Shown: one piece after another, positions 3,362 through 29,833 of the stretch
How positions within the stretch are numbered: the first letter of the stretch is position 1
How the letters are laid out: each line of letters opens with the position of its first letter
Assembly (NCBI GenBank): GCA_964483075.1
Contig: CAYZZO010000001.1
Coordinates: 1-29,988, forward strand
Source of the DNA: an uncultured Candidatus Saccharibacteria bacterium
GTDB taxonomy: Bacteria > Patescibacteriota > Minisyncoccia > Minisyncoccales > GWA2-38-27
Direction: 5' to 3'
DNA: 29,988 nucleotides
Program-made: the position numbers and the translations under genes
Notes under the pieces: model-generated
What the model saw: the letters and a program-made list of their open reading frames with translations, nothing else
The model's database searches: none
Told to the model about the DNA's origin: nothing

Positions 3362-3815
3362 AATTATATTCTATTATTTAATCTGTTGTTGAACCGGAGC
3401 AAGTAATAGGAAAAAGAGATCAGAATAGGGTTTCTCGTTTCGCGCTATTTGCTCGTCTGAAAAAATCGCCTTGCTAAAATCCACATAACCCAGACTTAGG
3501 CGCAATCTTCCTTCTTTAACCATTATTACGCCCTCGTTAATTTCAGGTAGCGAAATAAAATATTCTACTTTTTAATATTAACACAGAGAAATAAATCTAC
3601 CAAGCCAATAAACCTAATACGTAATAATTTTTTTATAACGAAATGCAGAAATTTTGAGCGAAAGGAAGATTGTATAACAATATGCGTTGGCAAACCTTAA
3701 ATAATCTGCGGCTAAAATTTCAAGCCGTGGCAGAAAGGATTATTGCGCATTAAATTTAATAAACTACATTCCCGAGGGTGCGCAGTTTGTTGCATGGTTA
3801 GAATCTGCACAAATA

Positions 3816-3844
3816 TTGATTTTAACAACAAAGAATGTTATTAT
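3816..3844 (+). promoter_or_regulatory. sigma70-type promoter for rpsT
   Basis: TTGATT-17 nt-TATTAT with an extended -10 TG, ending 38 nt upstream of the rpsT ATG. Confidence 0.6.
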
Positions 3845-3882
3845 TAAGCTTGAGAATATAAACAGAAAAAAAATAAAAAAAT

Positions 3883-4143
3883 ATGCCAATTATTAAATCA
3901 GCAAAAAAAGCTCTTCGCAAAAACATTAAACAAAGGAAAAGAAACATTGTTCATAAAAAGAAGATCAGAGGTCTTGCTAAAAAGATAAGAACTTTGGTTT
4001 CTGAAAAAAAAATCGAGGAAGCAAAAAATCTCTTACCACAAACGTATAAAGCATTAGACAAAGCAGCGAAAACCAACGTCATTAAGAAAAATACTGCCTC
4101 GAGGAGAAAATCAAGATTAACAAAATTAATAGGAAAAAATTAG
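3883..4143 (+). CDS. rpsT: 30S ribosomal protein S20
   Basis: MPIIKSAKKALR...DKAAKTNVIKKNTASRRKSRL is the S20 signature. The stop overlaps the convergent holA stop. Confidence 0.97.
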   Translation: MPIIKSAKKALRKNIKQRKRNIVHKKKIRGLAKKIRTLVSEKKIEEAKNLLPQTYKALDKAAKTNVIKKNTASRRKSRLTKLIGKN

Positions 4144-6022: not shown

Positions 6023-6388
6023 TTATTTGATAATTCCTCTCACTTTCTCAATGATTTCGTCTGGGGTAAAGCGAGCTTTAATTAAATAATCGGCCGCCCC
6101 CATTTTCAGTCCTTTTTCGATATCCTCTTTTCGTCCAAGATTAGACAATATAATGACAGGAATCTGGGAAGAAGAAGGATTGCTTTTTATTTTCGCCAAA
6201 ACCTCAAAACCGTCAACTTCAGGCAAAATAAGATCAAGCAAAATTAAATCTGGTTTTTCTTTGTTGACGCCTTCTATTCCTTTTTTCCCGTCAACCGCTT
6301 CAGCAACATCGTATCCTTCACTCACAATTTTTCGAGAAATAAGTTCTCTTAAAAATTTATCGTCTTCAATTACCAAAATTTTCTTCAT
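6023..6388 (-). CDS. Single-domain response regulator (CheY-like receiver) RR1
   Basis: 121 aa receiver only: IEDD, phosphoacceptor LLD, ILS, IK. No output domain. Confidence 0.95.
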   Translation of the reverse strand: MKKILVIEDDKFLRELISRKIVSEGYDVAEAVDGKKGIEGVNKEKPDLILLDLILPEVDGFEVLAKIKSNPSSSQIPVIILSNLGRKEDIEKGLKMGAADYLIKARFTPDEIIEKVRGIIK

Positions 6389-6399
6389 AAAAAAACATA

Positions 6400-6463
6400 A
6401 TCCGAATTTACGAATTATCCGAATTTACGAATTATAGTTATTCGTAAGTTGGTAGATTCGGAT
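6400..6463. repeat. 17-bp tandem repeat plus inverted copies forming a hairpin
   Basis: atccgaatttacgaatt occurs twice (6400-6433), followed by complementary attcgtaagttgg (6440-6452) and attcggat (6456-6463). Confidence 0.8.
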
Positions 6464-6468
6464 GTAAT

Positions 6469-6500
6469 CCTGTCCGCATCGCTAAAACGTTGCAGGCGGG
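6469..6500. repeat. GC-rich REP-like palindrome
   Basis: cctgtccgcatcg-ctaaaa-cgttgcaggcggg is a 13-position imperfect stem with 2 mismatches and 2 G.U pairs, in an AT-rich spacer. Confidence 0.65.
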
Positions 6501-6519
6501 TAGATTAGGATTGTATTAT

Positions 6520-6891
6520 TTATTTACCTAATTGTTTTTTAACTTTTTCGAGAACTTCCTGAGGGTCAAATTCGGTTTTAATCAACCAATCGCTTGCCCC
6601 TAATTTCTTAACTCTATCCAGCTCAACTGGCTGACCAGAATTGGAAATGATAATTATCGGAATCTTTTTCAATTTATCGTCCTTTCTCATTATCTCCATC
6701 ACCCCAAATCCCCCTAATTTAGGCATAACTATATCAAGAAGGATAAGGTCGGGATTTATTTCTCTCATCTTCAAAACCCCCTCTTCTCCGTTGCGAGCAG
6801 TTGAGACATCGTATCCCTCCATTGATAGCTTTTCTTTAAGGAGGTTCATCATAATTTCCTCGTCTTCGATTATTAGAATTTTTTTTGCCAT
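6520..6891 (-). CDS. Single-domain response regulator RR2
   Basis: 123 aa receiver only: IEDE, LLDIVMP, IISN, LIK. Confidence 0.95.
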   Translation of the reverse strand: MAKKILIIEDEEIMMNLLKEKLSMEGYDVSTARNGEEGVLKMREINPDLILLDIVMPKLGGFGVMEIMRKDDKLKKIPIIIISNSGQPVELDRVKKLGASDWLIKTEFDPQEVLEKVKKQLGK

Positions 6892-6946
6892 ATTTAATGG
6901 TAATCTCTGTGCGCCCTATTCTATAAAAGAATAAGAACTTTTACTT

Positions 6947-8515
6947 TTATTTTAATGCTTTAACCCGGGCAGTGTCAAATGGAAGATTGAAAAAAAAGGT
7001 TGTTCCCTTGCCTTCTTTGGAAATAAACCAGATTTTTCCATGATGAGCGTTAACAATGTTTTTCGTTATATAGAGACCCAACCCCGAACCGGTGGTATCA
7101 ATTTTCCTTATGTTGGTTGCTCTGAAAAATTTAGTAAATATTCTTTTTTGTTGGTCCTTCGGGATTCCTACTCCATTATCCTCAATAGAAAAATTCACTT
7201 CTTTTTTTCCCTTTTTAACAGAAATAACTATCTTGCCATTTTTTGGAGTATACTTTATGGCATTCCTCAAAAGGTTATCAATGACCATTTGTATTTTTTC
7301 TTTATCGAGCATAATTTTCGGTATTTTTTTCTTCGGTCTCTTGAATTTGACTATAATTTTTTTATCATCACTTTCTTTCTTATGGTCGATGATTGTTTTC
7401 TCTGTGATTTCTTCGATGTCAGTTGGGACTAATTCAAAAATATATCTCCCCTCCTCAATCCTTGAAACATCTAAAAGGTCATTAACCAAATTAATCATTC
7501 TTTCGTTTGACACATAAGCATCTCCTAAAAACTCTCTCTCGTCTTTATTCACCTTGCCTAAATCACCGTCTAAAACCATTTTTAGGGTCCATTTTATCGC
7601 CGAAAGAGGAGTTCTCAATTGGTGAGCAGATAATGAAACAAACTCTGTTTTCAACTTTTCGACTAATTTTTCTCTAGTAATATTATGCAGAATCAATAAA
7701 CTGCCTAACTTTTTCCTTTCCCTCTTGATAGCTACAACACTCACGTTTAAAATTAAATCTTTGTTTATTTTTAACTCTTTCCCGAAATTCTTTTTAAGCC
7801 TGCCTTTCGGTTTTTTTATTGGCAAAGACAAAGCGAGAATTTTTGGAAGTTTTGAGATAGATTTACCGATTATATCTTCTTTTTTAATTTTTAAGAAATC
7901 TTCTGCCAAGGGATTAACAAGCAAAATCTTATTTTTTTTATCAAAAACTATTAAACCATCGGTAAAATTATTAATTATTGTTAACGTCTTATCTTTTTCT
8001 TCCTCCGCTTTTTCTCTTGATTCCTCAGTATCCTCGAGCATGTTCATTAGTGCTTTCTGGCTATCTTCTAATTCTTTCGTCCTTTCTCTTACTTTTACCT
8101 CTAATCCTTCCTGTAGCCTCCTTAATTCACTAATATCGGAGATTACTAAAGAGTATCTGACAGTTCCGTCCCGATCGTCTTTCTTTGAAACGACGGAGAC
8201 ATTGGCCACTATCATTTTTTTGTTGCGCATTGATAGGTTAATGTTTTCATCTCTGGCGATTATATTTTTAAGAGAATCTCTCAAGAGGCGCCTAACTACT
8301 TCTTTATCTTTAAATAAAACACCAATCGTCTGACCTATTAAATCTTTTTTATCATAACCGGTTAGCTTTTCAGCTAACCTATTAAGGTTAATAACAATTC
8401 CTTCCGGACCAAGAATGAAAACGGGAACCGGCAAAAAATAAAAAAGATCCTTAATGTGTTCTTCGCTATATTCTAATTCTTCTTTTTTCTTTTTAAATAA
8501 ATTTTTTTCTTTCAT
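6947..8515 (-). CDS. Cytoplasmic PAS-coiled coil-PAS sensor histidine kinase HK1
   Basis: Two PAS-like segments separated by the helical linker LEVKVRERTKEL. H-box SAHQLRTPL, N-box NLLRNAIKY, G1 DNGVGIP, F FTKFFR, G2 GSGLGL. No transmembrane segment seen. Confidence 0.95.
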   Translation of the reverse strand: MKEKNLFKKKKEELEYSEEHIKDLFYFLPVPVFILGPEGIVINLNRLAEKLTGYDKKDLIGQTIGVLFKDKEVVRRLLRDSLKNIIARDENINLSMRNKKMIVANVSVVSKKDDRDGTVRYSLVISDISELRRLQEGLEVKVRERTKELEDSQKALMNMLEDTEESREKAEEEKDKTLTIINNFTDGLIVFDKKNKILLVNPLAEDFLKIKKEDIIGKSISKLPKILALSLPIKKPKGRLKKNFGKELKINKDLILNVSVVAIKRERKKLGSLLILHNITREKLVEKLKTEFVSLSAHQLRTPLSAIKWTLKMVLDGDLGKVNKDEREFLGDAYVSNERMINLVNDLLDVSRIEEGRYIFELVPTDIEEITEKTIIDHKKESDDKKIIVKFKRPKKKIPKIMLDKEKIQMVIDNLLRNAIKYTPKNGKIVISVKKGKKEVNFSIEDNGVGIPKDQQKRIFTKFFRATNIRKIDTTGSGLGLYITKNIVNAHHGKIWFISKEGKGTTFFFNLPFDTARVKALK

Positions 8516-8561
8516 TTTACTTTAGGGAGCAGGACTCGAACCGGGGCAAATTTTTTCCTTT

Positions 8562-9689
8562 TTAGTAAAACTTTCCGGTAATAAATTCCGCAAACCTCTT
8601 TTTTATAGGAAGGGTAAGATAAAAAGTTGTTCCTTTGCCTTCTTCTGAGATAAACCAAATTTTTCCTCCATGGCCATTAATAATATTTTTAGCTATATAA
8701 AGACCCAAACCCGTTCCTTCCGTCTCTTTTTGAATTATGTTGCTTCCACGAAAAAACTTAGTAAAAACTCTTCCTTGTTGTTGCTCGGGAATACCTAAAC
8801 CAGTATCGCTAATTTGAATCTTTATCTCTTTTTTATCTCTTCCTAAAAGAACTGTAATTTGTCCGCCCGACGGAGTGTACTCTACTGCATTGCTAAGAAT
8901 ATTCTCTATGGCGATTCTTATTTTCCCTTCGTTTACCATAATTTCCGGCAATTCTTCTTTTGTTTTCTTAAAATTAAATCTAATTTTTCTTTCTTTCATC
9001 TTTTTCCTGTATTTATCTATAGACGATTCCAAAATATAACCAATATTTGAAAGCTTTAAATCGGAAAAGTAGTCTTCTCCTTCTATTTGGGCAACCTCCA
9101 AAAGGTCTCCAATTAATTTTATCGCTTTATTGTTTGTCTCGTAAATCTTCCTAACAAAATCTTCTTGTTTTTTGTTTAGGCCGCCAAACTCTCCCTCCAA
9201 AAGCATTTTGAGCGACCATTTTATTGCCGAAGTCGGAGTCCATAACTCATGAGTGGCCAAATCAATAAATTCGGCTTTTACCTTACTGACAAGTTCCTTT
9301 TCGGTAATATTGTATAGAATTACAAGCGTACCTCTCTTTCCTTCTTCCGAAAATATTGGAATAATTGCAACTTCAAGAATAAGGTTGTCTTCGATTTTTA
9401 ATTTCTTTTTTCCTCCCTTGTAAATCTCCACCCCGAGAAAAGAGCCTAATTTTTTGATAGCAGGAGATTGGTTCAACTCAAAAATCGCTTTGCCGATAAG
9501 TTTCTCTTCTCTAACATTAAAAATATTTTCTATTTGAATGTTAGCAAGAGAAATTTTATTATACTCGTTAAAAATTAAAATTCCTTCTGGAAGATAATCT
9601 ATAATCTTTATTTCTTTATCGCTAAATCTTCGAATTGTTTCCCGATCAATTTTTTCTTTTTTTTCTTTTTTTCTTCCGAATAAAAACAT
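8562..9689 (-). CDS. Cytoplasmic PAS sensor histidine kinase HK2
   Basis: One PAS-like domain (IIDYLPEGILIFN). H-box ATHELWTP, NILSNAVEY, DTGLGIP, FTKFFRG, GTGLGL. No transmembrane segment seen. Confidence 0.93.
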   Translation of the reverse strand: MFLFGRKKEKKEKIDRETIRRFSDKEIKIIDYLPEGILIFNEYNKISLANIQIENIFNVREEKLIGKAIFELNQSPAIKKLGSFLGVEIYKGGKKKLKIEDNLILEVAIIPIFSEEGKRGTLVILYNITEKELVSKVKAEFIDLATHELWTPTSAIKWSLKMLLEGEFGGLNKKQEDFVRKIYETNNKAIKLIGDLLEVAQIEGEDYFSDLKLSNIGYILESSIDKYRKKMKERKIRFNFKKTKEELPEIMVNEGKIRIAIENILSNAVEYTPSGGQITVLLGRDKKEIKIQISDTGLGIPEQQQGRVFTKFFRGSNIIQKETEGTGLGLYIAKNIINGHGGKIWFISEEGKGTTFYLTLPIKKRFAEFITGKFY

Positions 9690-9733
9690 TATATCGAAAT
9701 TATGGAGGTATAATTTAAACCAAAATCTTTAAT

Positions 9734-11110
9734 TTAACTTTTTTGTTTTCTTAACTTTTTTATTTCTTTTTTCAGTTCTATCATTTTTAGCTCTCTACCG
9801 ACCGTTAATCGATGGAATCTTTCAAGGTCGTCTACTCTCTTTTGAAGTTCTTTTGTTCTTTGCTTGACTTTTTCTTCAAGGCTGTCAGCCAATTCCCTCA
9901 ACTCTTTAGTTCTGGCCTGGACCTTTATTTCAAGAACCGCCTTTGCTTCCTCCAACGCGGATTGAGATTTTCTTAAATTTTCTGTCATTTTATTAAAAGA
10001 CTCGATAAGCTTTCCTGTTTCATCCTGACGCTTTTCTTTAATTTTTTGACTAAAATCGCCATTGCTTACGGATACCATCGCTTCTATCGTCTTGTGTATA
10101 GGAACGACGATAACATGAGAAACGTAAAGAGATAATATAACTACTAAGACGATAGATATTAAAGATATCAACAATAAATCGTCCCTGGTATTGTTTTTTA
10201 TAGCTGCCATCTCTCGAACATTAGTGGATATAGCTATTGCTCCGGTTATTTTTCCTTGAATGTTTTTTAAAAAATGAAAAGCAAATAAATAGTTTTCTCC
10301 TCCAATACTTATCTTTTTAATCAGGTCTCGAGAAAAATTCTCATTGCTAATATCAAGTTCTTCTCCCAAAATGCGATTTTCTTGGCTTTTTCCAAAAGTG
10401 CTGGAAATAACTATATTTTTTTCTAAGATGTGAACATCCGCGCCAACTCCTTTCTTTATTTCCTCTGTTATTCGAGAATTATTGTTAAGAAGACTACCTA
10501 AAATAGCAGCTCCAATTAATTTATTTTCAAAATAAATAGGAACAGCCGATTTTATCATTAAGCCAGATTCTAAAATATGGCCATTTTTTTTGATACTTGC
10601 TTTTGCTAAAAGACCTTCTTTCTCCAATTCCTGCGAAGAAACAATCTCTGTCCCGATGGTTATTTTCCCTTCCGGAGACCTTAAAGCACTTCTTACTAAA
10701 GGTTTTCCCGATAAGTCATCTTCAAATAAAGAAAAATTTGTTCCCCTGGCCACTACTACTCCTTTATTATCGACAATAGTAAGAACATCGAGGTCTTTCT
10801 GCCTTAGCAGAATGCCGGAAATATAATCAGCAAGTTGTTCTCTCGGGCCTGTTTCCAAGGTTGATTTAACTATGTTTTCATTAGAAATAGACCGAGCCAA
10901 GTTTATTAGATTTTTTTCTTTGAGATCATAAAACAAAGAGGCGTTATTTAGTTTGGCCAAGAGTTTTTTAGAGAACTCATCACCTACATATTTATCAAAC
11001 GAATAAACAGCATAGGTAGTGGCTATTGCCATAGAAATCAAAGAAATAACTACAAAACCAAAAATTAGCTTTGCTTTTATGCTATATAAAAATGATTTTT
11101 TCTCGTTCAC
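9734..11110 (-). CDS. Membrane sensor (TM-Cache-like-TM-HAMP-coiled coil) with no catalytic output domain
   Basis: GTG start. Two hydrophobic helices flank a roughly 270-aa extracytoplasmic domain. HAMP (PIHKTIEAMVSVSNGDFS...DETGKLIESFNKM) follows, then a coiled coil ending GRELKMIELKKEIKKL. No HisKA, HATPase, GGDEF or MCP domain. Confidence 0.85.
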   Translation of the reverse strand: MNEKKSFLYSIKAKLIFGFVVISLISMAIATTYAVYSFDKYVGDEFSKKLLAKLNNASLFYDLKEKNLINLARSISNENIVKSTLETGPREQLADYISGILLRQKDLDVLTIVDNKGVVVARGTNFSLFEDDLSGKPLVRSALRSPEGKITIGTEIVSSQELEKEGLLAKASIKKNGHILESGLMIKSAVPIYFENKLIGAAILGSLLNNNSRITEEIKKGVGADVHILEKNIVISSTFGKSQENRILGEELDISNENFSRDLIKKISIGGENYLFAFHFLKNIQGKITGAIAISTNVREMAAIKNNTRDDLLLISLISIVLVVILSLYVSHVIVVPIHKTIEAMVSVSNGDFSQKIKEKRQDETGKLIESFNKMTENLRKSQSALEEAKAVLEIKVQARTKELRELADSLEEKVKQRTKELQKRVDDLERFHRLTVGRELKMIELKKEIKKLRKQKS

Positions 11111-11219
11111 AAAATTAAAATAACAAGAATTGCTAAGCCGATAACAACTTTTAAGTCGCCCTAATCTTTGATCGATTATTTTTAATAATAATCAATGCTT
11201 TTAAAATTAGAATTGTTTT

Positions 11220-11582
11220 TTAAAGAATATTTTTAATTTTATCAACAATTTCTCCTGGGGTAAAATGAGCTTTAATAAAATAGTCCACTGCTCCCATTCC
11301 CAACCCCTTTTCTATGTCTTCCTTATCCCCAAGATTTGATAAAATAATAACTGGAATTTCAGAGATTGAAGAACCTGCTTTCATTTTCGCCAAAACCTCA
11401 AACCCTGTCATTTCCGGCAAAACAAGATCTAATAAAACCAAATCAGGCTTCTCCTTCTTAACGGCTTTTAATCCTTTTTCCCCGTCTATCGCTTCAACCA
11501 CTTCATACCCTTCTTTTAAAAGTTTTTTACTAATGACTTTCCGAAGAAAAACATCGTCCTCAATTACTAAAATTTTTTTCAT
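11220..11582 (-). CDS. Single-domain response regulator RR3
   Basis: 120 aa receiver only (IEDD, LLD, ILS, IK). About 83/120 residues identical to RR1 by hand alignment. Confidence 0.95.
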   Translation of the reverse strand: MKKILVIEDDVFLRKVISKKLLKEGYEVVEAIDGEKGLKAVKKEKPDLVLLDLVLPEMTGFEVLAKMKAGSSISEIPVIILSNLGDKEDIEKGLGMGAVDYFIKAHFTPGEIVDKIKNIL

Positions 11583-12877: not shown

Positions 12878-13333
12878 CTAATTTATTATAATTCTTCTTT
12901 TTCTCTTATCTATAAATTCAAATTTCAGCCAGAGAGCGCTCTTCGGAATTATTTTTTTAATTCTGTCCGCCCATTCGATAGCAACAATATTTCGAGGGTT
13001 AGAAATAATTTTTTCAAGATTCAAATCAATCAGTTCTCCAATGTTTTGTATTCTATAACAATCAATGTGATAAAAATTATTGAATTGTTTGACCGCTAAA
13101 TTGTCCAATTGAAATTTTTTCAGAATGACAAAAGTAGGGCTTGTCATCCGTTCTTTTATGCCCAACTCTTTCCCGAAACCCTGCAATAATGTCGTTTTGC
13201 CGCCTCCTAACTCGCCCTCCATAGCAACAACAATGGCCTTTTCTTTTAACGGACTTCTTATAATTTTTTTGGCTATTTCCCTGCCTATTTTTTTTGTTTC
13301 TTCTGGATTTGTTGTTAAATATTCTTTTCTCAT
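12878..13333 (-). CDS. tsaE: tRNA threonylcarbamoyladenosine biosynthesis ATPase
   Basis: GELGGGKTT P-loop, SPTFVI, YHIDCYRI, IEWAD. Confidence 0.96.
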   Translation of the reverse strand: MRKEYLTTNPEETKKIGREIAKKIIRSPLKEKAIVVAMEGELGGGKTTLLQGFGKELGIKERMTSPTFVILKKFQLDNLAVKQFNNFYHIDCYRIQNIGELIDLNLEKIISNPRNIVAIEWADRIKKIIPKSALWLKFEFIDKRKRRIIIN

Positions 13334-13412: not shown

Positions 13413-13456
13413 GAAGATAAGATTATTGGTTATTGCGCGTTGAATCTAATTATAAC

Positions 13457-14767
13457 ATGGCAGAGATAAAAAAAATAACCGGCGAAGTTAAAATCCCCGA
13501 GGAAACAGTTAAAGATATCCGCTTAAGCGGCAAAAGTATCTCTGATTTTGGAACAAAAATCAGGTCGTCCTTAGGAGAAAATACGACTAAGGCTTTGGAA
13601 ATTATTTTGGCAGGAGCAATTAATCTTGATTCCTCGGATATTCATTTAGAACCCGAAGAAGAAAAAATAAAATTAAGAATTAGAATCGACGGAGTTCTCC
13701 GAGATGTAACTTTTTTTAGTCCGGAAAAATATCATTCTTTCCTTTCAAGAATAAAGCTTCTCAGCGGACTTAAATTAAATGTAACCAATAGGCCGCAAGA
13801 CGGTCGCTTTTCTATCTTAATTGGCAACACCTCCATTGAAATAAGAGTATCTTCGCTTCCCTCTGAATACGGGGAGACGGTTGTTCTTAGAATACTAAAC
13901 CCAAAAAGCTTAATCAACTTAGAAGGACTTGGACTAAGAGAAGATCTTCTTAAAACCGTTAAAAAAGAAATAAAAAAGCCAAACGGAATGATTATTGTCA
14001 CCGGACCCACCGGATCGGGAAAGACAACAACGCTTTATGCTATTCTGAAAAAAATCAATAGACCGGAAGTTAAAATTATAACTATTGAAGACCCTATCGA
14101 ATATAAACTGGAAGGAATCTCTCAAACCCAGGTTAATCCTAAGAAAGGATATGATTTTGCTAATGGGCTTAGGGCAATAATGCGCCAGGACCCTGATATA
14201 ATTTTGGTGGGAGAAATCAGAGACCTGGAAACAGCTAAAATCGCCCTTCAAGCAGCTCTAACCGGACATTTGGTTTTAAGCACTATACATACAAACGACG
14301 CCGCAGGAACAATAGCTCGGCTCCAAGCCCTGGGAGCAAAAGCAGTTAACATCGCTCCCGCTATAAATATGGCTATTGCCCAAAGACTAGTAAGAAAAGT
14401 CTGTAAAAGATGCGGCAGGCTGGAAACGATTTCAAAAGAAGAACTCAAAAAAATAAAAAAATCCCTAAAAGGTGCTCACCTTAAGGGAATAAAAATTCCG
14501 AAAATAACAGAAAAAACAAAAATTCCGAAAATAAAAGGATGTAAATACTGTAATTTCACCGGCTATAAAGGACGCCAAGCAATTTTTGAAAGTTTTTTAG
14601 TAGACGACGAAATAGAAAATTTCATCTTAAAATCCTCTTCAATCTCTTCTTTAAGAAAATTAGCCGAAAAAAAAGGAATGATCTCAATGCGCCAAGATGG
14701 ATTCCTAAAGGTCATTAAGGGAATTACTACTATGGAAGAGATAGAAAGAGTAACTCCAGAAGAATGA
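13457..14767 (+). CDS. GspE/PilB-family type IV pilus assembly ATPase, short N-terminus
   Basis: SDIHLEP, PQDGRF, Walker A GPTGSGKTTT, TIEDPIEY, Walker B ILVGEIRD, His box GHLVLSTIHTN, tetracysteine Zn site CKRC...CKYC. Likely ATG at 13457 (the track uses TTG at 13433). Confidence 0.92.
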   Translation: MAEIKKITGEVKIPEETVKDIRLSGKSISDFGTKIRSSLGENTTKALEIILAGAINLDSSDIHLEPEEEKIKLRIRIDGVLRDVTFFSPEKYHSFLSRIKLLSGLKLNVTNRPQDGRFSILIGNTSIEIRVSSLPSEYGETVVLRILNPKSLINLEGLGLREDLLKTVKKEIKKPNGMIIVTGPTGSGKTTTLYAILKKINRPEVKIITIEDPIEYKLEGISQTQVNPKKGYDFANGLRAIMRQDPDIILVGEIRDLETAKIALQAALTGHLVLSTIHTNDAAGTIARLQALGAKAVNIAPAINMAIAQRLVRKVCKRCGRLETISKEELKKIKKSLKGAHLKGIKIPKITEKTKIPKIKGCKYCNFTGYKGRQAIFESFLVDDEIENFILKSSSISSLRKLAEKKGMISMRQDGFLKVIKGITTMEEIERVTPEE

Positions 14768-16134: not shown

Positions 16135-17313
16135 ATGAGGCAAGACTTAAAGTGTTTCTGTTCTTTTCTATCCTTATTGTTATTTTTGCCCCTTGTCGCC
16201 CAGGGGGCTTTTTTCCCTTTAGTTATCAATGAAATCGCCTGGATGGGAACAAAGGATTCGGCAAATAACGAATGGGTTGAAATTTATAACAAAAGCGATA
16301 AGAAGATAATCGTTGACGGTTTAATTCTCAAGTCTGTCAAAAAATCCCCAAAAATTACTCTTTCGGGTAAAATAGAGGGTAAGGGTTTTTATCTTTTAGA
16401 GAGAAGCGACGAGGAAACGGTTCCAAATATTAAAGCAGATCTTATTTATAAAGGAGCCCTAAGTAATGAAGGAGAGAAATTAACGCTTTCTGACTCTTCC
16501 GGAAATTTAATTGATGAAATTAATTGCTCTTCCGGATGGTTCGCCGGCAACAATAAAACTAAACAGACAATGGAAAGAATAAGTCCTTTTTCGTCTGGCG
16601 ATAATGCCGAAAACTGGAAAACTAGCCAGGAATCAGGCGGAACGCCAAAAGCAATAAACAGCCAACAAAAGGAAGGAGTTAAAAACGACAAAAAGAGCAA
16701 GGCTAGCTCTCAAGGGAATGCCATTTATTCGGACAAAATCATTTTCAGCGAAATACTTCCGTCTCCTAAGGGACCTGACGCAGAAAATGAATGGATTAAA
16801 ATCGGGAATAAGAACAATTTTCAAGTTGATCTTTCTGGGTGGAAAATAAAAGATAAAAAAGGAAAGATTTCTGTCTATGTTTTTCCGGTCGGCAAAAAAA
16901 TTCCTTCTTTGGGCTATTTAACACTTAAAAGATCCGTAACAAATATCGTTTTAAATAATAGCGGAGACGGTTTAGAGATTATCAACCCAGATGGAAAAAT
17001 TGTCGATTCTGTGGATTTTAACAAGGCGCCACTTAATCAATCATACGCCAGGACAAGCAAAGGTTGGAGCTGGAATTCTAGATTAACGCCCGCGGTAAAA
17101 AACGAAAAACAAAAGAGAGAAAAAACAAAAGACGGCCCTCCGATAGCTAGTAAAAAAGCGGTAAATTACATATCTAAAAAGGGTACAGCTATCGTTGGAG
17201 AAAAAATTCCAAAAACCCCTTCCTCTTTTTTCGACCTATTAGCTTCTTTGATAATTGCCGTTTCATCTGCAACAATAATTTTTTTTCTTAGAAAAGCGCT
17301 ATTTTCAAAATAA
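16135..17313 (+). CDS. Exported, C-terminally membrane-anchored protein with two lamin-tail-like domains
   Basis: N-terminal signal/hydrophobic stretch. Repeated LTD-type motifs VINEIAWMG...EWVEIYN and IFSEILPSP...EWIKIGN, each followed by L-N-G(E/D)-L-(L/I)...G..(I/V)D. C-terminal TM helix with a basic tail. Confidence 0.8.
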   Translation: MRQDLKCFCSFLSLLLFLPLVAQGAFFPLVINEIAWMGTKDSANNEWVEIYNKSDKKIIVDGLILKSVKKSPKITLSGKIEGKGFYLLERSDEETVPNIKADLIYKGALSNEGEKLTLSDSSGNLIDEINCSSGWFAGNNKTKQTMERISPFSSGDNAENWKTSQESGGTPKAINSQQKEGVKNDKKSKASSQGNAIYSDKIIFSEILPSPKGPDAENEWIKIGNKNNFQVDLSGWKIKDKKGKISVYVFPVGKKIPSLGYLTLKRSVTNIVLNNSGDGLEIINPDGKIVDSVDFNKAPLNQSYARTSKGWSWNSRLTPAVKNEKQKREKTKDGPPIASKKAVNYISKKGTAIVGEKIPKTPSSFFDLLASLIIAVSSATIIFFLRKALFSK

Positions 17314-22706: not shown

Positions 22707-22775
22707 ATCTACCAAAGACCATAACCTAAACACCGACCCAATGTTTAGGTCATGGCGTTTAGTGTTGATAAATCT

Positions 22776-23201
22776 ATGCAATTTACTATCCCCCAATTTA
22801 TTGAAAAGGAACCAAAAATAATCGGACCATTCACTTTTAAGCAGTTCATTTTCATTGGCATTGCTGTCGCCATATGTATTTTTCTTTATTTTACAGTTCC
22901 TATGTTTGTGTTTGTTGTTTCGGCAATAATATTACTAGGAGGTGGATTCTCCCTAGCACTTTTAAAGGTAGAGAGAACCCCTTTGCCGACCATCATAAAA
23001 AATTCATTTCTTTTCCTCTTTAAGCCGAAACTTTATCTATGGAAAAAGAGAAATTTTACTCCAAGGGTCCTAAAAAGAGAGAGATTTCTAACCAGCCAGA
23101 AGAAAGAAGAAGAAAAAAAAGAAAAAGAGAATCCTCTTTTGAGTTTCGGGAAGGGCGGAAGATTAAAAAAATTATTTACTAATCTAGAAGTAAAAAAATA
23201 A
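22776..23201 (+). CDS. PrgI-family (VirB3-like) membrane protein
   Basis: Likely start MQFTIPQFIEKEPKIIGPFTFKQF (the track starts at 22752). Two TM helices. Lies upstream of a VirB4 ATPase. Confidence 0.8.
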   Translation: MQFTIPQFIEKEPKIIGPFTFKQFIFIGIAVAICIFLYFTVPMFVFVVSAIILLGGGFSLALLKVERTPLPTIIKNSFLFLFKPKLYLWKKRNFTPRVLKRERFLTSQKKEEEKKEKENPLLSFGKGGRLKKLFTNLEVKK

Positions 23202-23216
23202 TAAAATAGTCAATTT

Positions 23217-23849
23217 ATGGCAGGAGAATCAACTCAAAATTTTTTAGAATTCGACCAAATTAGAAACGGCGTTATCATTCTTAAAAACAAAGGTTTAAGG
23301 ATGATTCTGATGGTTTCTTCATTAAATTTTGCCTTAAAATCGGTTGAAGAACAGGACGCTATTTTATACCAATTTCAAAATTTTTTAAATTCTTTGGATT
23401 TCTCTTGTCAGATTATTGTTCAATCGAGGCGACTTAATATTACTGGATACATAGACAAATTAAAGACTATTGGGAAAAAAGAAACAAACGAACTACTTAA
23501 AGTACAAATCGAAGAATATATAAAATTCATAAATAAAATTGTCGGAGGAGGCTCAATTATGCAGAAAACTTTTTATGTGGTAGTTCCCTTTTCTATTTCC
23601 GAAATAAAAACAACTCGAGAAGGAGGACCATCCATAAATATCCCCACCTTCTCTGAAGAAATGTTTCAAAGAGCAAAGGTTCAACTTCTCCAACGAGTAG
23701 AGTTTACTTCCTTGGGTTTAAGGTCTTGCGGCCTCAGAGCTATTCCTTTAAACACGACAGAAATTATCGAGCTCTTTTGGGGGCTACACCACCAAAAAGA
23801 GGCAGAACGCGGCTATTATCCCGAATTTCCCCCAGAGTTAACGAGATAA
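23217..23849 (+). CDS. Conserved protein between PrgI and VirB4 (resembles the N-terminal partner domain of Gram-positive-type conjugation ATPases)
   Basis: 210 aa. Segments such as LNFALKSVEEQDAI...FLNSLDF..QI and its operon position. The family assignment is an inference. Confidence 0.6.
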   Translation: MAGESTQNFLEFDQIRNGVIILKNKGLRMILMVSSLNFALKSVEEQDAILYQFQNFLNSLDFSCQIIVQSRRLNITGYIDKLKTIGKKETNELLKVQIEEYIKFINKIVGGGSIMQKTFYVVVPFSISEIKTTREGGPSINIPTFSEEMFQRAKVQLLQRVEFTSLGLRSCGLRAIPLNTTEIIELFWGLHHQKEAERGYYPEFPPELTR

Positions 23850-23906
23850 ACATGGCCCCCAACCCATCTATCTACGCAATTAGATAGACATTAATGATTT
23901 AAAAAT

Positions 23907-25712
23907 ATGAAATTTCCTTCATTTAATTTCTTAAAAAGAGGTGAGAAAATCCCGGAAGTCCACAGGGAAGAACCTTTAAGGGTTGCAGATATCATTGCTC
24001 CTTCTTTTGTTCAGGTTGAACAGAACTATATTAAAGTCGGGGAACGGATTGCAAAAAGTTATTTTATTTTTTCCTACCCGAGATATTTAAGCAGCGGCTG
24101 GCTTTCTCCAATAATCAATATAAATATCCCGATGGATATTTCTTTTCACTTACACCCGGTTTCTAGTGAGAAAATTTTAAAAAAACTAAGAAGAAAGACC
24201 ACCGAAGTCCAAGCGGAGATAGAAGAAAGAGAGGAAAAAGGATTAATCAGGGACCCAACGTTAGAAGTCGCTTTTCAAGACCTGGAAACATTGAGAGATA
24301 AGCTCCAAACAGCTCAGGAAAGAATGTTTCATCTTAGTCTTTATATCACTATATATGGAAATACAGAAAAAGAATTGAACAGCGTTGAGGTCAATCTTCG
24401 TTCGATTTTAGAGTCCCGTTTAATTTATGTTAAACCGGCTATTTACCAGCAAAAAGAAGGGTTTATTTGTACTTCTCCTTACGGACTTGATGTCTTGGCA
24501 GATTCAACCCTGATGGACACCTCTCCCCTCTCAAGCACCTTCCCCTTTGTCTCATTTGATTTAAGCTCAAACGAAGGAATACTTTACGGAATCAATAAAC
24601 ACAATGAATCGCTTGTTTTGTTCGACCGTTTTAGCCTACCCAATGCCAATTCGGTAATATTCGGAACGTCCGGTGGAGGAAAAAGTTATAGCGTTAAATT
24701 AGAAGTGCTAAGATACTTAATGCTTGGCGTAGATGGAATAATCATAGACCCTGAAAATGAATATAAGTTCTTGGCAGAGGCTGTCGGCGGCTCTTTTTTT
24801 AATATTTCACTCGCCTCACCTAATCATATTAATCCTTTTGACTTACCAGCACCAAGAGAAGATGAAAAGCCAGAGGATGTTTTGAGGTCTAACATCATCA
24901 ATCTTGTCGGACTAATGAGGGTTATTCTCGACGGACTTAGCGCCGAAGAAGACGGTATTATCGATAGGGCAATTACAGAAACTTATGCCGCAAAGGACAT
25001 CACTATAAACAGCGATCCAAAGCTTTGGGGGAAGGAACTTCCTTTCCCGAGAATGTCAGACCTTGAAGATGTGCTTCTTGGAATGGAAGGAACGGAATCT
25101 TTAGTCAGGAGGATACAAAGATTCACGAAGGGAGTTTACTCAAGTTTTTTCAACCAGCCGACAAACATCGATATTAACAAAAATCTGGTTGTCTTTGGTG
25201 TCCGTGACATGGAAGACGAGCTCCGGCCAATGGCTCTCTTCATGATTCTACGTTATATATGGAATGTAGTTACCTCAAAATTAAAAAAACGACTGTTAAT
25301 CGTAGACGAAGCTTGGTGGCTAATGCAGAATGAAGATGGAGCCTCTTTTCTCTTCGGAACAGTGAAAAGAGCAAGGAAATACTGGCTCGGAGTAACCACT
25401 ATCACTCAGGATGTCGGCGATTTTATGAAATCAGAATATGGAAAACCAATAATTACTAATTCCTCGTTGGCCGTTTTATTAAAACAGAGTGCCGCCACGA
25501 TAGAAACGGTTAAAAAGACCTTTAATCTGACCGATGAAGAAAAGGTGATTTTACTAGAGACCCCAACGGGAGAAGGAATATTTTTTGCTGGGACAAAGCA
25601 TGTTCTAATTAGGGTTGTTGCGTCTAACGCCGAAAATCAGATAATAACCTCTTCACCAGAAGAGATTATGAAAATAAAAGAAGCCAAAAGAAGAGAAGAT
25701 ACAAACTATTAA
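23907..25712 (+). CDS. VirB4/TraC-like type IV secretion ATPase
   Basis: 601 aa. NANSVIFGTSGGGKS (Walker A), IIIDPENEY, INPFD, LLIVDEAWWL (Walker B), RARKY, TITQDV. Confidence 0.9.
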   Translation: MKFPSFNFLKRGEKIPEVHREEPLRVADIIAPSFVQVEQNYIKVGERIAKSYFIFSYPRYLSSGWLSPIININIPMDISFHLHPVSSEKILKKLRRKTTEVQAEIEEREEKGLIRDPTLEVAFQDLETLRDKLQTAQERMFHLSLYITIYGNTEKELNSVEVNLRSILESRLIYVKPAIYQQKEGFICTSPYGLDVLADSTLMDTSPLSSTFPFVSFDLSSNEGILYGINKHNESLVLFDRFSLPNANSVIFGTSGGGKSYSVKLEVLRYLMLGVDGIIIDPENEYKFLAEAVGGSFFNISLASPNHINPFDLPAPREDEKPEDVLRSNIINLVGLMRVILDGLSAEEDGIIDRAITETYAAKDITINSDPKLWGKELPFPRMSDLEDVLLGMEGTESLVRRIQRFTKGVYSSFFNQPTNIDINKNLVVFGVRDMEDELRPMALFMILRYIWNVVTSKLKKRLLIVDEAWWLMQNEDGASFLFGTVKRARKYWLGVTTITQDVGDFMKSEYGKPIITNSSLAVLLKQSAATIETVKKTFNLTDEEKVILLETPTGEGIFFAGTKHVLIRVVASNAENQIITSSPEEIMKIKEAKRREDTNY

Positions 25713-28477: not shown

Positions 28478-29833
28478 ATGACAAACGAAGAGCTTTGGCA
28501 ATCAGTCCTTGCCCGAATCCAACTAAATATATCTCAGGCAAATTTTGCAACATGGTTTAAGAATACGAAAATCGATTCTCAAAAAAAAGGGAAAGCGATT
28601 GTTTCTGTTCCAAATTCTTTTGTTAAGGAATGGTTAGAAAACAAATACAATAAAGACATCCTGAAAATAGTTTATGAAATTAATACTGATATTAAAAAAA
28701 TTGAATACGTTGTTAGGGAACAGAAAAATGAAACCCTAAAAAAAGTTCCAGACGTTCTACCTCAAACAAAAATAAACCAGCTCGATTTTCCCCAACTTAA
28801 GATTGATGGGAAAAGCAATCTCAATCCCCGCTATACTTTCGATTCATTTATCGTTGGCCCTTTTAATGAATTGCCGCACGCCGCCGCCATTGCCGTAGCA
28901 AAAAACCCTGGCTTTATTTATAATCCGTTGTTTATTTATGGTGGAACAGGGCTTGGTAAAACTCATATTTTACAAGCCGTTGGGAATGAAGTAATGAAGA
29001 ATTTTAAAAAAAAGAAAATACAATATATTCCTTCTGAAAAATTTACCTCTGAGGTGGTTTCTGCTATTAGAAACCATCAAATGGAAATATTTAAAGAAAA
29101 ATATAGGAAAGTCGATGTTTTGATTATTGACGATATTCAATTCTTAGCCGGAAAAGAAAAAACCCAAGAAGAATTCTTTCATGTTTTTAACGTTTTATAC
29201 GAAAACAATAAACAAATTGTTTTATCTTCGGATAGGCCGCCACGAGCTATCCAATCATTGGCAGAGAGATTAAAATCAAGGTTTGAAGGCGGAATGATAG
29301 CAGACATAAGCTCTCCAGACTTAGAAACGAAAATTGCTATTTTAAAAACAAAAGCTCAAGAAAAAAAAGTAGATTTCTCAAGCGATATTTATGAATATAT
29401 CGCCTCCATTATTAAAAAAAATATTAGAGAATTAGAAGGAGCGCTAAACCATTTAATTGTTTATCAAAAACTTAATGGTAAAAAACCTGACATTGAGACA
29501 GTAAAAAATATTTTTAAAGATTTATTTTCTGCGCCACGCTCTATAGTAACTCCGAAAATGATTATCCAAGAAGTGGCTAATTTTTATGAGATAAAAGAAA
29601 AAGACATTCTATCTGTTTCAAGAAAAAAAGAATTTGTCGAGCCACGTCAAATAGCAATGTATTTATTAAGAGAAGAATTAAACAGTTCTTTTCCCTCTAT
29701 TGGAAGAAAGTTTAACGGAAGAGATCATACAACCGCTATCCACTCTTATAAAAAAATTTCAGGAGAGATAATAAAAAATAAAAAACTAGAAGAAGAGATT
29801 GGTATAATTAAAGAGAAAATCTTAAATGGGTGA
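28478..29833 (+). CDS. dnaA: Chromosomal replication initiator DnaA
   Basis: NPRYTFDSFIVG, YNPLFIYGGTGLGKTH, DVLIIDDIQF, RLKSRFEGG, NIRELEGAL, domain IV RDHTTAIHS. Confidence 0.99.
   Translation: MTNEELWQSVLARIQLNISQANFATWFKNTKIDSQKKGKAIVSVPNSFVKEWLENKYNKDILKIVYEINTDIKKIEYVVREQKNETLKKVPDVLPQTKINQLDFPQLKIDGKSNLNPRYTFDSFIVGPFNELPHAAAIAVAKNPGFIYNPLFIYGGTGLGKTHILQAVGNEVMKNFKKKKIQYIPSEKFTSEVVSAIRNHQMEIFKEKYRKVDVLIIDDIQFLAGKEKTQEEFFHVFNVLYENNKQIVLSSDRPPRAIQSLAERLKSRFEGGMIADISSPDLETKIAILKTKAQEKKVDFSSDIYEYIASIIKKNIRELEGALNHLIVYQKLNGKKPDIETVKNIFKDLFSAPRSIVTPKMIIQEVANFYEIKEKDILSVSRKKEFVEPRQIAMYLLREELNSSFPSIGRKFNGRDHTTAIHSYKKISGEIIKNKKLEEEIGIIKEKILNG

What the first reader, a model, noticed from the sequence alone, without database searches (positions are those of the whole stretch)
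6023..11582. Split signalling module: kinase-less membrane sensor plus soluble kinases plus three output-less receivers
Six co-oriented genes encode a complete phosphorelay parts list in unusual pieces. The only membrane protein (9734-11110) has Cache-like and HAMP input but ends in a coiled coil. Both kinases lack TM segments. All three regulators are bare receivers. The sensor tail has two copies of one signalling-helix motif (LEIKVQARTKEL, LEEKVKQRTKEL), and HK1 has the same motif between its PAS domains (LEVKVRERTKEL). This suggests the sensor controls the soluble kinase in trans through a heteromeric coiled coil (inference). With no DNA-binding output here, signalling is probably post-translational, which is notable for a reduced genome.
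Basis: partly seen in the sequence, partly recalled or inferred. Interest (0 to 1): 0.72.

Follow-up and report, generated by a model that had tools for sequence, protein, structure and literature searches.

The report
Kinase-less sensor plugged into separate kinases
A membrane sensor that has lost its own kinase ends in a short, very conserved helical tail, and this tail marks a large unannotated family of bacterial and archaeal sensors that almost always sit just upstream of a separately encoded histidine kinase, so signal input and kinase appear to be two proteins that must find each other.

Summary
Six co-oriented minus-strand genes encode REC / dCache-HAMP sensor without kinase / PAS-kinase / PAS-PAS-kinase / REC / REC. 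All catalytic residues are intact.

The shared LE.KV..RTKEL motif is real, but it is the generic S-helix "ERT" signature. It is not specific evidence for pairing.

The family-defining feature is the last ~35 residues of the sensor (ELERFhRLTVGRELKMIELKKEI, "T motif"). A T profile finds 12,494 cluster representatives. T lies within 40 residues of the C-terminus in 127 of 132 top hits, and none of them has a kinase. T follows many input types: dCache-HAMP, 7TM, PAS, GAF, PocR and REC.

In 80 species-representative loci, 47 of 64 kinase genes and 59 of 75 bare receivers lie just downstream of T genes (p about 1e-23 and 1e-32), often abutting the stop codon.

Most partner kinases, in CPR, DPANN, Nitrospirota and Magnetococcales, carry a second conserved acidic motif (ALLNILEDxEEAR, "N motif"; HK1 has it, HK2 lacks it). 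Four of four N-kinases sampled from the kinase side had a T sensor upstream.

So trans control of the kinase is well supported by synteny. T docking onto N is my inference and is untested. Neither motif is in Pfam, NCBIfam, the PDB or the searched literature.

The parts
11220..11582 (-). RR-A: stand-alone receiver (120 aa). It is a paralog of RR-C (69% identity).
   Evidence: Pfam Response_reg only. Active-site residues E8/D9, D52, S82, K104 are intact. Identity to RR-C.
9734..11110 (-). Kinase-less membrane sensor (458 aa): TM1, dCache, TM2, HAMP, S-helix, S-helix, T motif, stop.
   Evidence: Pfam, AF2, Foldseek, homolog family.
10208..10927 (-). Extracytoplasmic double-Cache domain (aa 62-301), flanked by TM1 (nt 10997-11065) and TM2 (about nt 10109-10177).
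   Evidence: dCache_3 E=1.1e-10, sCache_3_3 E=2.9e-8. Foldseek hits to McpB/YvaQ, vpHK1S-Z8, KinD, DctB, PctA, Tlp3 and LuxQ ectodomains. Hydropathy.
9971..10123 (-). HAMP domain (aa 330-380).
   Evidence: Pfam HAMP E=1e-12.
9845..9934 (-). Two S-helix units, LEIKVQARTKEL (nt 9899-9934) and LEEKVKQRTKEL (nt 9845-9880), 18 residues apart.
   Evidence: ERT signature of the S-helix as described in PMC1592074.
9737..9832 (-). T motif and C-terminal basic tail (aa 427-458: DDLERFHRLTVGRELKMIELKKEIKKLRKQKS). This is the family-defining terminal module.
   Evidence: Invariant R439, E440, L446 and near-invariant G438, M443, E445, K447 in 70 homologs. Profile A2 finds 12,494 representatives. No PDB or Pfam match.
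8562..9689 (-). HK2: soluble PAS-HisKA-HATPase_c kinase (375 aa) without the N motif. It starts 44 nt after the sensor stop.
   Evidence: Pfam. His147 and N/G1/G2 boxes intact. Lacks N motif. Best relative L002_8 at 59%.
6947..8515 (-). HK1: soluble PAS-S-helix-N motif-PAS-HisKA-HATPase_c kinase (522 aa). This is the cassette-typical partner kinase.
   Evidence: Pfam. His298 and boxes intact. 45-60% identical to kinases downstream of T genes in other loci.
8069..8104 (-). S-helix unit of HK1 (LEVKVRERTKEL, aa 138-149), between PAS1 and the N motif.
7955..8062 (-). N motif of HK1 (aa 152-187: SQKALMNMLEDTEESREKAEEEKDKTLTIINNFTDG). It is an acidic helix leading into PAS2 and is the proposed docking site for the T motif.
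   Evidence: The motif is present in 45 of 66 kinase ORFs of T loci and in partner kinases of four phyla. Net charge -2.6 against +3.0 for T. No PDB match.
6520..6891 (-). RR-B: stand-alone receiver (123 aa). It belongs to the conserved first-receiver orthogroup of the cassette.
   Evidence: Pfam. 57-75% identical to the first REC after the kinase in most CPR loci. Active site intact.
6023..6388 (-). RR-C: stand-alone receiver (121 aa). It belongs to the conserved second-receiver orthogroup.
   Evidence: Pfam. 56-74% identical to the second REC in CPR loci. Active site intact.

Best explanation
The cluster is one copy of a conserved, widespread 'split sensor kinase' cassette.

1. Input. The dCache-HAMP membrane protein is a bona fide input module. 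Its transmitter (DHp plus ATPase) has been replaced by a C-terminal helical module: one to three S-helix units followed by the invariant T motif.
2. Transmission. Ligand binding outside the cell is passed through TM2, HAMP and the roughly 95-residue continuous helix to the T end.
3. Control of the kinase. The T end acts in trans on a separately encoded, soluble kinase and sets its kinase/phosphatase balance. The direct partner is most likely HK1. HK1 carries the acidic N motif (ALMNMLEDTEESREKAEEE) immediately before its core-proximal PAS domain. I propose that the basic T helices pack against the N helices of the kinase dimer.
4. Output. HK1 then phosphorylates the two conserved single-domain receivers RR-B and RR-C, which act through protein-protein contacts.
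5. Extra pair. HK2 and RR-A are an additional kinase/receiver pair found in only one other locus of the 80 sampled (L002). They lack the N motif. They may be controlled by the sensor in another way or may sense through their own PAS domain.

Shown: domain architecture, intact catalytic sites, family conservation, terminal position of T, synteny and tight gene spacing, T/N co-occurrence in both directions, and opposite charges.

Inferred: physical contact, T-N as the interface, the sign of the regulation, and the outputs of the receivers.
For: - Architecture and intact sites.
- Conserved family. About 350 hits share HAMP plus the tail without a kinase. The T profile gives 12,494 representatives at E<=1e-3 and 953 at E<=1e-10. 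In 127 of 132 top hits T is within 40 aa of the C-terminus, and none has an H-box.
- Input domains. T follows classical kinase input modules: dCache+HAMP, HisKA_7TM, GAF, PAS, PocR, SBP_bac_3 and REC.
- Synteny. 41 of 58 loci with at least 3 kb of downstream sequence have a co-oriented kinase within 6 kb. 47 of 64 kinase ORFs and 59 of 75 bare REC ORFs start in 16% of the strand-specific sequence (p=7e-24 and 2e-32). Kinase starts often lie -16 to +50 nt from the T gene's stop.
- Receiver order. The order kinase, then RR-B type, then RR-C type is fixed in CPR loci.
- N motif. It is present in 45 of 66 kinases of these loci, both soluble CPR kinases and membrane HAMP kinases of DPANN.
- Other phyla. 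In Ca. Magnetobacterium, Magnetococcales and another lineage, T sensors precede sensor-less or HAMP hybrid kinases in which N abuts the DHp.
- Reverse test. 4 of 4 N-kinases found from the kinase side have a T-terminated ORF within 3.5 kb upstream, while only 25 of 120 close DHp homologs carry N.
- Charge. T averages +3.0 and N averages -2.6 per 24 aa.
- No terminator-like site inside the cluster.
Against: - No interaction data exist, and no complex prediction could be run.
- T and N are never adjacent partners by any direct test here. Their link is co-occurrence only.
- The N motif also occurs in cis inside multi-PAS proteins that have no T sensor in the same polypeptide, so it is not exclusive to this pairing.
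- HK2, the gene directly after the sensor in this window, lacks N.
- 17 of 58 loci show no kinase within 6 kb.
- The loci were selected by the presence of T, and two of the four reverse-test kinases are orthologs of a system already seen.
- AF2 confidence falls to about 60 in the T region, as expected for an unpartnered helix, so the model says nothing about how T docks.
Confidence: 0.58

Rival explanations
1. The sensor's two S-helix units pair with the identical S-helix unit between HK1's PAS domains, forming a heteromeric coiled coil that controls the kinase.
For: The three near-identical LE.KV..RTKEL units exist. Many CPR partner kinases also have an S-helix before the N motif. In DPANN pairs the T protein and the kinase share HAMP plus an S-helix.
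Against: - The motif is the general S-helix consensus, which forms parallel homodimeric coiled coils in thousands of unrelated proteins (PMC1592074).
- 19 of 80 T proteins have no ERT-type unit.
- Partner kinases in Nitrospirota and other lineages lack it.
- S-helix copy number varies from 0 to 3, whereas T is invariant.
Confidence: 0.1
2. T proteins are decoys or dominant-negative subunits. They form mixed dimers with the kinase (through HAMP/S-helix or T/N). Such a dimer has only one DHp-CA, so the kinase is silenced until a signal releases it.
For: In DPANN loci the T protein and the adjacent membrane kinase are paralogous up to the S-helix and then diverge into T or N. Kinase-kinase hetero-association is known for RetS/GacS (PMC5992135, seen).
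Against: In CPR and in this window the kinase is soluble and shares no HAMP or TM region with the sensor, so a chain-for-chain mixed dimer is geometrically awkward. Several different T sensors (membrane and PAS types) often precede one kinase, which fits input convergence better than simple titration.
Confidence: 0.12
3. The T tail does not address the kinase. It binds something else encoded nearby: the single-domain receivers (as a pseudo-DHp docking site or an output target), the V4R protein of other phyla, or an unlinked effector. The kinases would then sense only through their own PAS domains.
For: Bare receivers are as enriched downstream as kinases. Stand-alone receivers need protein targets. 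V4R genes lie between T sensors and kinases in four non-CPR loci (L081/L082, L084, L086, L089).
Against: - DPANN and several other loci have T sensors and N kinases but no bare receiver within 6 kb.
- CPR loci have no V4R.
- The only partner feature common to all lineages is a kinase, most of them (45 of 66 kinase ORFs) with the N motif.
- hhalign gives no similarity of T to DHp (probability below 1%).
- The N-terminal modules of T proteins are input domains, not effectors.
Confidence: 0.15
4. The sensor is a broken kinase gene (pseudogene, frameshift or assembly error) whose kinase half is HK2.
For: NCBIfam aligns the sensor to WalK profile positions 77-260 and HK2 to positions 262-594, as if one gene had been cut.
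Against: The gap is 44 nt with stops in all frames, and the reading frame differs. The tail after HAMP is a 78-aa module conserved at 45-75% identity in thousands of proteins that all end there. HK2 has its own start and a complete PAS. Read-level data did not cover the junction, so this argument rests on conservation.
Confidence: 0.01

Closest known systems
Chemoreceptor-CheW-CheA-CheY pathways
   Same: A kinase-less transmembrane receptor (sensor, HAMP, long coiled coil) controls a soluble histidine kinase in trans. The output goes to single-domain receivers. Several receptors can feed one kinase.
   Different: There is no MCPsignal hairpin, no CheW and no CheA in the window. The kinases are ordinary HisKA/HATPase_c enzymes with PAS domains. 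The receptor ends in a single straight helix with the T motif instead of a methylatable four-helix hairpin.
Orthodox WalK/PhoR/PnpS-type kinases (sensor-TM-HAMP-PAS-DHp-CA in one chain)
   Same: Together the sensor and a kinase cover the WalK profile end to end. Unsplit relatives with HAMP, S-helix, N motif and kinase exist in the same kind of locus.
   Different: Here the chain is divided after the S-helix. The sensor half carries the T motif, and the kinase half starts with its own PAS or N motif.
Histidine kinases with auxiliary sensor proteins (three-component systems such as YycH/YycI-WalK, UhpC-UhpB, LuxP-LuxQ, BceAB-BceS; recalled from my own knowledge)
   Same: A separate sensing protein modulates a kinase by protein-protein contact.
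   Different: Those kinases keep their own membrane or sensor part, and the contacts are periplasmic or intramembrane. Here the accessory is itself a complete kinase-type input module (Cache-HAMP-S-helix), and contact must be cytoplasmic through a dedicated conserved tail.
Non-enzymatic HK-like proteins ('HisKA, no HATPase') of archaea (Galperin et al. 2018, PMC5847659)
   Same: Kinase-type sensor domains without a catalytic ATPase domain. They are commonly misannotated and their role is unknown.
   Different: Those proteins keep a HisKA domain with the conserved His. The T module has no His, no HisKA hit and no profile similarity to DHp.
S-helix module (Anantharaman, Balaji and Aravind 2006, PMC1592074)
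   Same: The repeated LE.KV..RTKEL units are S-helices with the ERT signature. In HK1 the unit sits between two PAS domains, as is typical.
   Different: [quoted passage not shown] In the sensor it is followed only by the 32-residue T tail.
Af1503 of Archaeoglobus fulgidus (HAMP receptor that ends without an output domain; recalled from memory, Hulko et al. 2006, not checked here)
   Same: A transmembrane receptor whose cytoplasmic part ends shortly after HAMP with no catalytic output.
   Different: To my recollection Af1503 ends at HAMP and has no S-helix plus T extension. I did not test whether it belongs to the T family.
Split kinases in the sense of Amin et al. 2013 (PMC3591291), and RetS-GacS cross-talk (PMC5992135)
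   Same: Kinase function or control is distributed over two polypeptides.
   Different: In split kinases DHp and CA are separated, whereas here both kinases are complete. RetS is itself a full hybrid kinase that contacts GacS through DHp.

Membership tests
Orthodox transmembrane sensor histidine kinase (WalK/PhoR-like) | Extracytoplasmic sensor flanked by two TM helices, followed by HAMP | tested here: met
   Pfam dCache_3/HAMP, AF2 topology, Foldseek dCache hits.
Orthodox transmembrane sensor histidine kinase (WalK/PhoR-like) | DHp (HisKA) with a phospho-acceptor His in the same polypeptide | tested here: not met
   No HisKA hit in the sensor. hhalign of T against DHp gives probability 0.4%. 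The sensor ends 78 aa after HAMP.
Orthodox transmembrane sensor histidine kinase (WalK/PhoR-like) | HATPase_c catalytic domain in the same polypeptide | tested here: not met
   No HATPase_c hit in the sensor. The stop is followed by 44 nt with stops in all frames.
S-helix (signalling helix) | Heptad coiled coil with a central ERT signature | tested here: met
   ARTKEL and QRTKEL in the sensor, ERTKEL in HK1. Signature as defined in PMC1592074.
S-helix (signalling helix) | Lies between two signalling domains | tested here: not met
   This is met in HK1 (PAS1-S-PAS2). In the sensor the units are followed only by the T tail and the stop.
Chemotaxis-type receptor/kinase system | MCPsignal cytoplasmic hairpin in the receptor | tested here: not met
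   No MCPsignal hit. AF2 shows a single straight helix with no hairpin.
Chemotaxis-type receptor/kinase system | CheA-type kinase and CheW adaptor encoded with it | tested here: not met
   The kinases are of HisKA type. No CheA or CheW among the window ORFs scanned.
Chemotaxis-type receptor/kinase system | Single-domain (CheY-like) receivers as output | tested here: met
   Three REC-only proteins with intact active sites.
   Sensor aa 428-447, 11 residues before the end. The same placement holds in 127 of 132 top representatives.
   HK2 lies at +45 nt and HK1 (with the N motif) is next. Family statistics.
Non-enzymatic HK-like proteins (HisKA, no HATPase) | C-terminal HisKA-like dimerisation domain with a conserved His | tested here: not met
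   No HisKA hit. The only His in the T region of this sensor (H433) is variable across the family: H 44%, Q 18%, N 18%. hhalign probability is below 1%.
Split kinase (DHp and CA on separate proteins) | Phospho-acceptor and ATP-binding domains on different polypeptides | tested here: not met
   HK1 and HK2 each have an H-box plus N, G1 and G2 boxes.
Physical sensor-kinase complex | Direct binding of the T tail to HK1 or HK2 | not testable with these tools
   Only monomer prediction is offered.

The most novel reading that the evidence does not exclude
The T motif (on sensors) and the N motif (on kinases) are a previously unrecognised, universal non-covalent connector. It lets interchangeable input modules (Cache-HAMP, 7TM, PAS, GAF, PocR, REC) plug into a shared, separately encoded histidine kinase. 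This would be a modular 'split two-component sensor' architecture spread over more than 12,000 protein clusters in CPR bacteria, DPANN archaea, Nitrospirota, Proteobacteria, Desulfobacterota and others. It would operate like receptor-CheA coupling, but with orthodox kinases and without an adaptor.
Probability: 0.4. Interest if true: 0.85.

Novelty: new variant of a known kind. Interest (0 to 1): 0.74.

Why it matters
Textbook two-component sensors carry input and kinase in one chain. The main exception is chemotaxis, which needs a special receptor tip, CheW and CheA.

If the T-tail sensors really drive orthodox kinases in trans, three consequences follow:
- Thousands of proteins now labelled 'HAMP/PAS/PocR domain-containing protein' with no output would get a function.
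- Many 'sensor-less' soluble or hybrid kinases would get their missing input.
- There would be a compact 35-residue docking module usable to rewire kinases in synthetic biology.

For CPR and DPANN organisms, which have very few regulators, the cassette (T sensor(s), N kinase, two bare receivers) is one of the few conserved signalling devices. It is therefore a good entry point to what these cells sense.

Tried and rejected
- **T as a degenerate DHp helix 1 and N as DHp helix 2.** hhalign of T against DHp, N against DHp and T against N all gave probability below 1%. Rejected for lack of support.
- **Rosetta-stone fusion.** One protein (P0129) has T, a 30-aa Pro/Gly-rich linker and N in cis. The PocR sensors have T, PocR, N, S, PAS and T. 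A homolog search with the T-linker-N segment returned only 3 hits, none with both motifs. The fusion is too rare to use as evidence.
- **Complex prediction with a Gly-Ser-linked chimera.** The structure tool returns no coordinates, so cis contacts could not be read either.
- **Solved structures.** No PDB chain matches the T or N profiles.
- **Literature.** No paper contains the motif strings, and none was found that describes HAMP or PAS sensors ending in this tail.
- **Read-level check of the sensor/HK2 junction.** The only run holding the sequence (a marine sediment metagenome) is kept as short contigs that stop at nt 9656, and part of the region was filtered. Inconclusive.
- **Heliorhodopsin link** for the multi-TM T proteins. 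Pfam shows HisKA_7TM or no hit instead.
- **Promoter scan.** Not above chance. No terminator-like sites were found.
- **RNA and origin checks.** Rfam and tRNA scans of the window were empty. DnaA boxes are not enriched.

Full report
**1. What is there**

The region holds six co-oriented genes on the minus strand: RR-A (11582..11220), a 458-aa membrane sensor (11110..9734), HK2 (9689..8562), HK1 (8515..6947), RR-B (6891..6520) and RR-C (6388..6023).

- Pfam finds only a receiver domain in each regulator.
- In the sensor, Pfam finds dCache/sCache plus HAMP and nothing after residue 380.
- HK2 is PAS-HisKA-HATPase_c and HK1 is PAS-PAS-HisKA-HATPase_c.
- NCBIfam aligns the sensor to positions 77-260 of the WalK model. 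It aligns HK2 and HK1 to positions 262-594 and 230-594. Sensor plus kinase therefore look like a WalK/PhoR-type enzyme cut in two.
- An AlphaFold2 model of the sensor, built on 70 homologs (pLDDT 87.5), shows two membrane helices, a double-Cache ectodomain and HAMP. These are followed by a single uninterrupted helix from residue 364 to 457. Confidence in that helix falls to about 60 at the end.
- Foldseek matches the ectodomain to dCache sensor domains of chemoreceptors and kinases, including McpB/YvaQ, vpHK1S-Z8, KinD, DctB, PctA, Tlp3 and LuxQ.
- Neither kinase has a membrane segment.
- The phospho-acceptor His, the N/G1/G2 boxes and the receiver active-site residues are all intact.
- Intergenic gaps are 109, 44, 46, 55 and 131 nt. 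No terminator-like site lies inside the cluster, against 4.0 expected by chance.

The flanks are housekeeping genes (fpg, holA, ligA, a 5'-3' exonuclease, tsaE, ruvB/C, tyrS, yidC, dnaA). The closest sensor relatives come from Parcubacteria-type CPR bacteria. The only public run holding the sequence is a marine sediment metagenome.

**2.

LEIKVQARTKEL, LEEKVKQRTKEL and LEVKVRERTKEL are present. They are the only matches to LE.KV..RTKEL in all six frames of the window.

They are, however, the S-helix of Anantharaman, Balaji and Aravind. That element is a parallel coiled coil with a central 'ERT' signature. It precedes about 10% of all histidine kinases and also links PAS domains (PMC1592074). 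Sharing it therefore says little about a specific partnership. What is unusual is its position. [quoted passage not shown]

**3. The tail defines a large family**

- A search with the sensor returned about 350 proteins of 290-460 aa, mostly from Patescibacteria. They match only HAMP plus the tail (45-60% identity) and none has a kinase domain.
- The conserved core is ...ELE[RK]F[HQN][RK]L[TA]VGRELKM[IV]ELKKEI..., which I call the T motif. R439, E440 and L446 are invariant. G438, M443, E445 and K447 are nearly so.
- A 39-residue profile of T, searched against 1.84 billion cluster representatives, gives 12,494 hits at E<=1e-3 and 953 at E<=1e-10. In 127 of 132 top hits T ends within 40 residues of the C-terminus, and none has an H-box.
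- The exceptions carry a second T copy or a low-complexity extension.
- T follows every kind of kinase input module. Examples are dCache+HAMP, HisKA_7TM with GAF or with Cache+HAMP, one to five PAS domains, PocR, solute-binding domains and REC-GAF-PAS arrays.
- Databases name these proteins only 'HAMP/PAS/PocR domain-containing protein'.
- Neither Pfam nor NCBIfam covers the tail, and no PDB chain matches it.
- The kinase-less sensor is therefore a conserved design, not a broken gene. The 44-nt gap with stops in all frames and the frame change before HK2 agree with this.

**4. Gene neighbourhood**

A scan of one genome per species found more than 600 pattern matches, and 484 were confirmed. 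I analysed the best 80 loci. Most are CPR. Others are DPANN archaea, Thermodesulfovibrionia, Cloacimonadota and Elusimicrobia.

- With my own ORF calls and HMMs seeded from the window proteins, 41 of 58 loci with at least 3 kb of downstream sequence have a co-oriented kinase within 6 kb.
- The kinase start often lies -16 to +50 nt from the T gene's stop.
- 47 of 64 kinase ORFs and 59 of 75 bare receiver ORFs start within the 16% of strand-specific sequence that lies downstream of T genes (binomial p = 7e-24 and 2e-32).
- Several loci have two T sensors, one membrane-bound and one PAS-only, before a single kinase.
- In CPR loci the kinase is followed by an RR-B-type and then an RR-C-type receiver. 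These are 57-75% and 56-74% identical to the window proteins.
- Nearly all receivers are 119-148 aa.
- RR-A is a paralog of RR-C (69%). HK2-type kinases occur only here and in L002. HK2 and RR-A thus look like a lineage-specific extra pair.

**5. A second motif on the kinase side**

Kinases downstream of T genes share [SK]x[KR]AL[LM]N[IM]LED[VT]EEAR..AE.E+.KT.AII.NF.DG, which I call the N motif. It is placed directly before the PAS domain that precedes the DHp. In hybrid kinases of other phyla it is placed directly before the DHp itself.

- 45 of 66 kinase ORFs in the loci match my regex, and at least one more (L001_12) has a variant that the regex missed.
- HK1 has the motif (aa 152-187). HK2 does not.
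- DPANN membrane kinases have it after HAMP and the S-helix. Their neighbouring T proteins are paralogous up to the S-helix and then carry T instead.
- In Ca. Magnetobacterium, two T sensors are followed by a V4R protein and then a sensor-less hybrid kinase. In that kinase N abuts the H-box (RLAMLNIMEDLEEARKEAEAASKAKADFLANMSHE).
- The same holds in a Magnetococcales locus and in one further locus.
- For a reverse test I searched with an N+DHp segment. Only 25 of the 120 best DHp homologs carry N.
- All four N kinases whose contigs I inspected have a T-terminated ORF within 3.5 kb upstream on the same strand. Two of the four are orthologs of a system already seen, so the sample is small.
- T is basic (+3.0 per 24 residues) and N is acidic (-2.6).
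- No PDB chain carries N.

**6. Interpretation**

It shifts the likely contact from the generic S-helix to the T tail and, on the kinase, to the N helix.

I propose the following chain of events:
1. Ligand binding to the dCache domain is relayed through HAMP and the long helix to T.
2. The two basic T helices of the sensor dimer pack on the acidic N helices of the HK1 dimer.
3. This sets HK1's kinase/phosphatase balance towards RR-B and RR-C.

The logic resembles receptor-CheA-CheY signalling. It differs in having no MCP hairpin, CheW or CheA.

Steps shown: architecture, conservation, terminal placement, synteny, T/N co-occurrence and charge complementarity. Steps inferred: binding, the interface, the sign of control, and what the receivers do. 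The absence of any DNA-binding output in the cassettes fits protein-protein outputs but does not prove them.

**7. Rivals**

- **S-helix/S-helix pairing** is weakened because S copy number ranges from 0 to 3 and many partners lack it.
- **A decoy or mixed-dimer role** is plausible for the DPANN paralog pairs. It is awkward for soluble CPR kinases.
- **A tail that binds the receivers or V4R instead of the kinase** cannot be excluded. However, the only partner feature shared by all lineages is a kinase, most of them with the N motif.
- **A pseudogene or assembly artefact** is excluded by conservation. Reads could not be used for the junction.

**8. Things that led nowhere**

- T and N show no profile similarity to DHp helices or to each other.
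- Cis T-linker-N fusions exist (P0129) but are too rare to exploit.
- Literature searches found no description of the tail, the N motif or the pairing.
- The nearest published categories are the archaeal 'HisKA, no HATPase' proteins (PMC5847659), which keep a His-bearing DHp, and the S-helix paper itself.

**9. Verdict**

The window holds a typical member, with one extra kinase/receiver pair, of a large and apparently undescribed class of split sensor-kinase cassettes. I rate it a new variant of a known kind (two-component signalling with a trans-acting sensor). Interest is 0.74. Confidence in trans control via the T tail, with HK1 as the main partner, is 0.58.

Noticed in passing
window 6397-6463 (spacer between RR-B and RR-C): A tandem 17-nt direct repeat (ATAATCCGAATTTACGA, two copies, 94% identical) lies here, with 11-15 nt inverted-repeat partners at 6440-6463. 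It could be an operator or an RNA element in front of RR-C. There is no Rfam match.
   Followed up: partly
window 13433-14767 (+), diverging from the minus-strand block that ends at tsaE (12878-13333): A PilB/GspE-type T2SSE ATPase (Pfam E=2e-120) lies about 1.9 kb from the signalling cluster. It is a possible target for the single-domain receivers, by analogy with PilG/PilH-type control. No link was tested.
   Followed up: no
window 22752-25712 (+): A PrgI-family protein and a VirB4/TraG-like P-loop ATPase indicate a type IV secretion-like or conjugation-like module. They sit between a class A penicillin-binding protein gene (PBP1) and yidC/dnaA.
   Followed up: no
window 16135-17313 (+): A 392-aa protein with two lamin-tail domains (LTD, E=1.8e-27) lies between ruvB and yebC.
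   Followed up: no
window about 13.3-15 kb: Gene orientation flips from minus to plus at 13333/13433, and the cumulative GC skew reaches its minimum there. dnaA lies 15 kb away at 28478-29833. DnaA-box matches are not enriched in the window (8 found against 6.2 expected).
   Followed up: partly
L081/L082 13012-13539, L084 12491-13018, L086 8474-9001, L089 8462-8989: Outside CPR, a 175-aa V4R-domain protein is inserted between the T-motif sensor(s) and the N-motif hybrid kinase. The non-CPR T tails also end in a further conserved ...LGxxxKYKIV or ...PPY motif that the window sensor lacks.
   Followed up: partly
T-family proteins in L001-L080 and P0001-P0120: The S-helix unit before T is repeated 0 to 3 times (19, 37, 20 and 4 proteins respectively). 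In the window sensor the two units are 18 residues apart, which is exactly five alpha-helical turns. This suggests that the length of the stalk is tuned in quantal steps.
   Followed up: partly
L016 8948-10264: One multi-TM T-motif sensor has a weak N-terminal flavodoxin-like hit (Flavodoxin_3, E=1e-7, first 40 residues only). Other 4-8 TM T sensors have no Pfam match at all, so they are uncharacterised membrane input modules.
   Followed up: no
window 3362-3882: A stretch of about 520 nt has no ORF longer than 49 aa. It lies between a PHP-domain protein gene and rpsT (3883-4143, +). There is no Rfam or tRNA hit.
   Followed up: no
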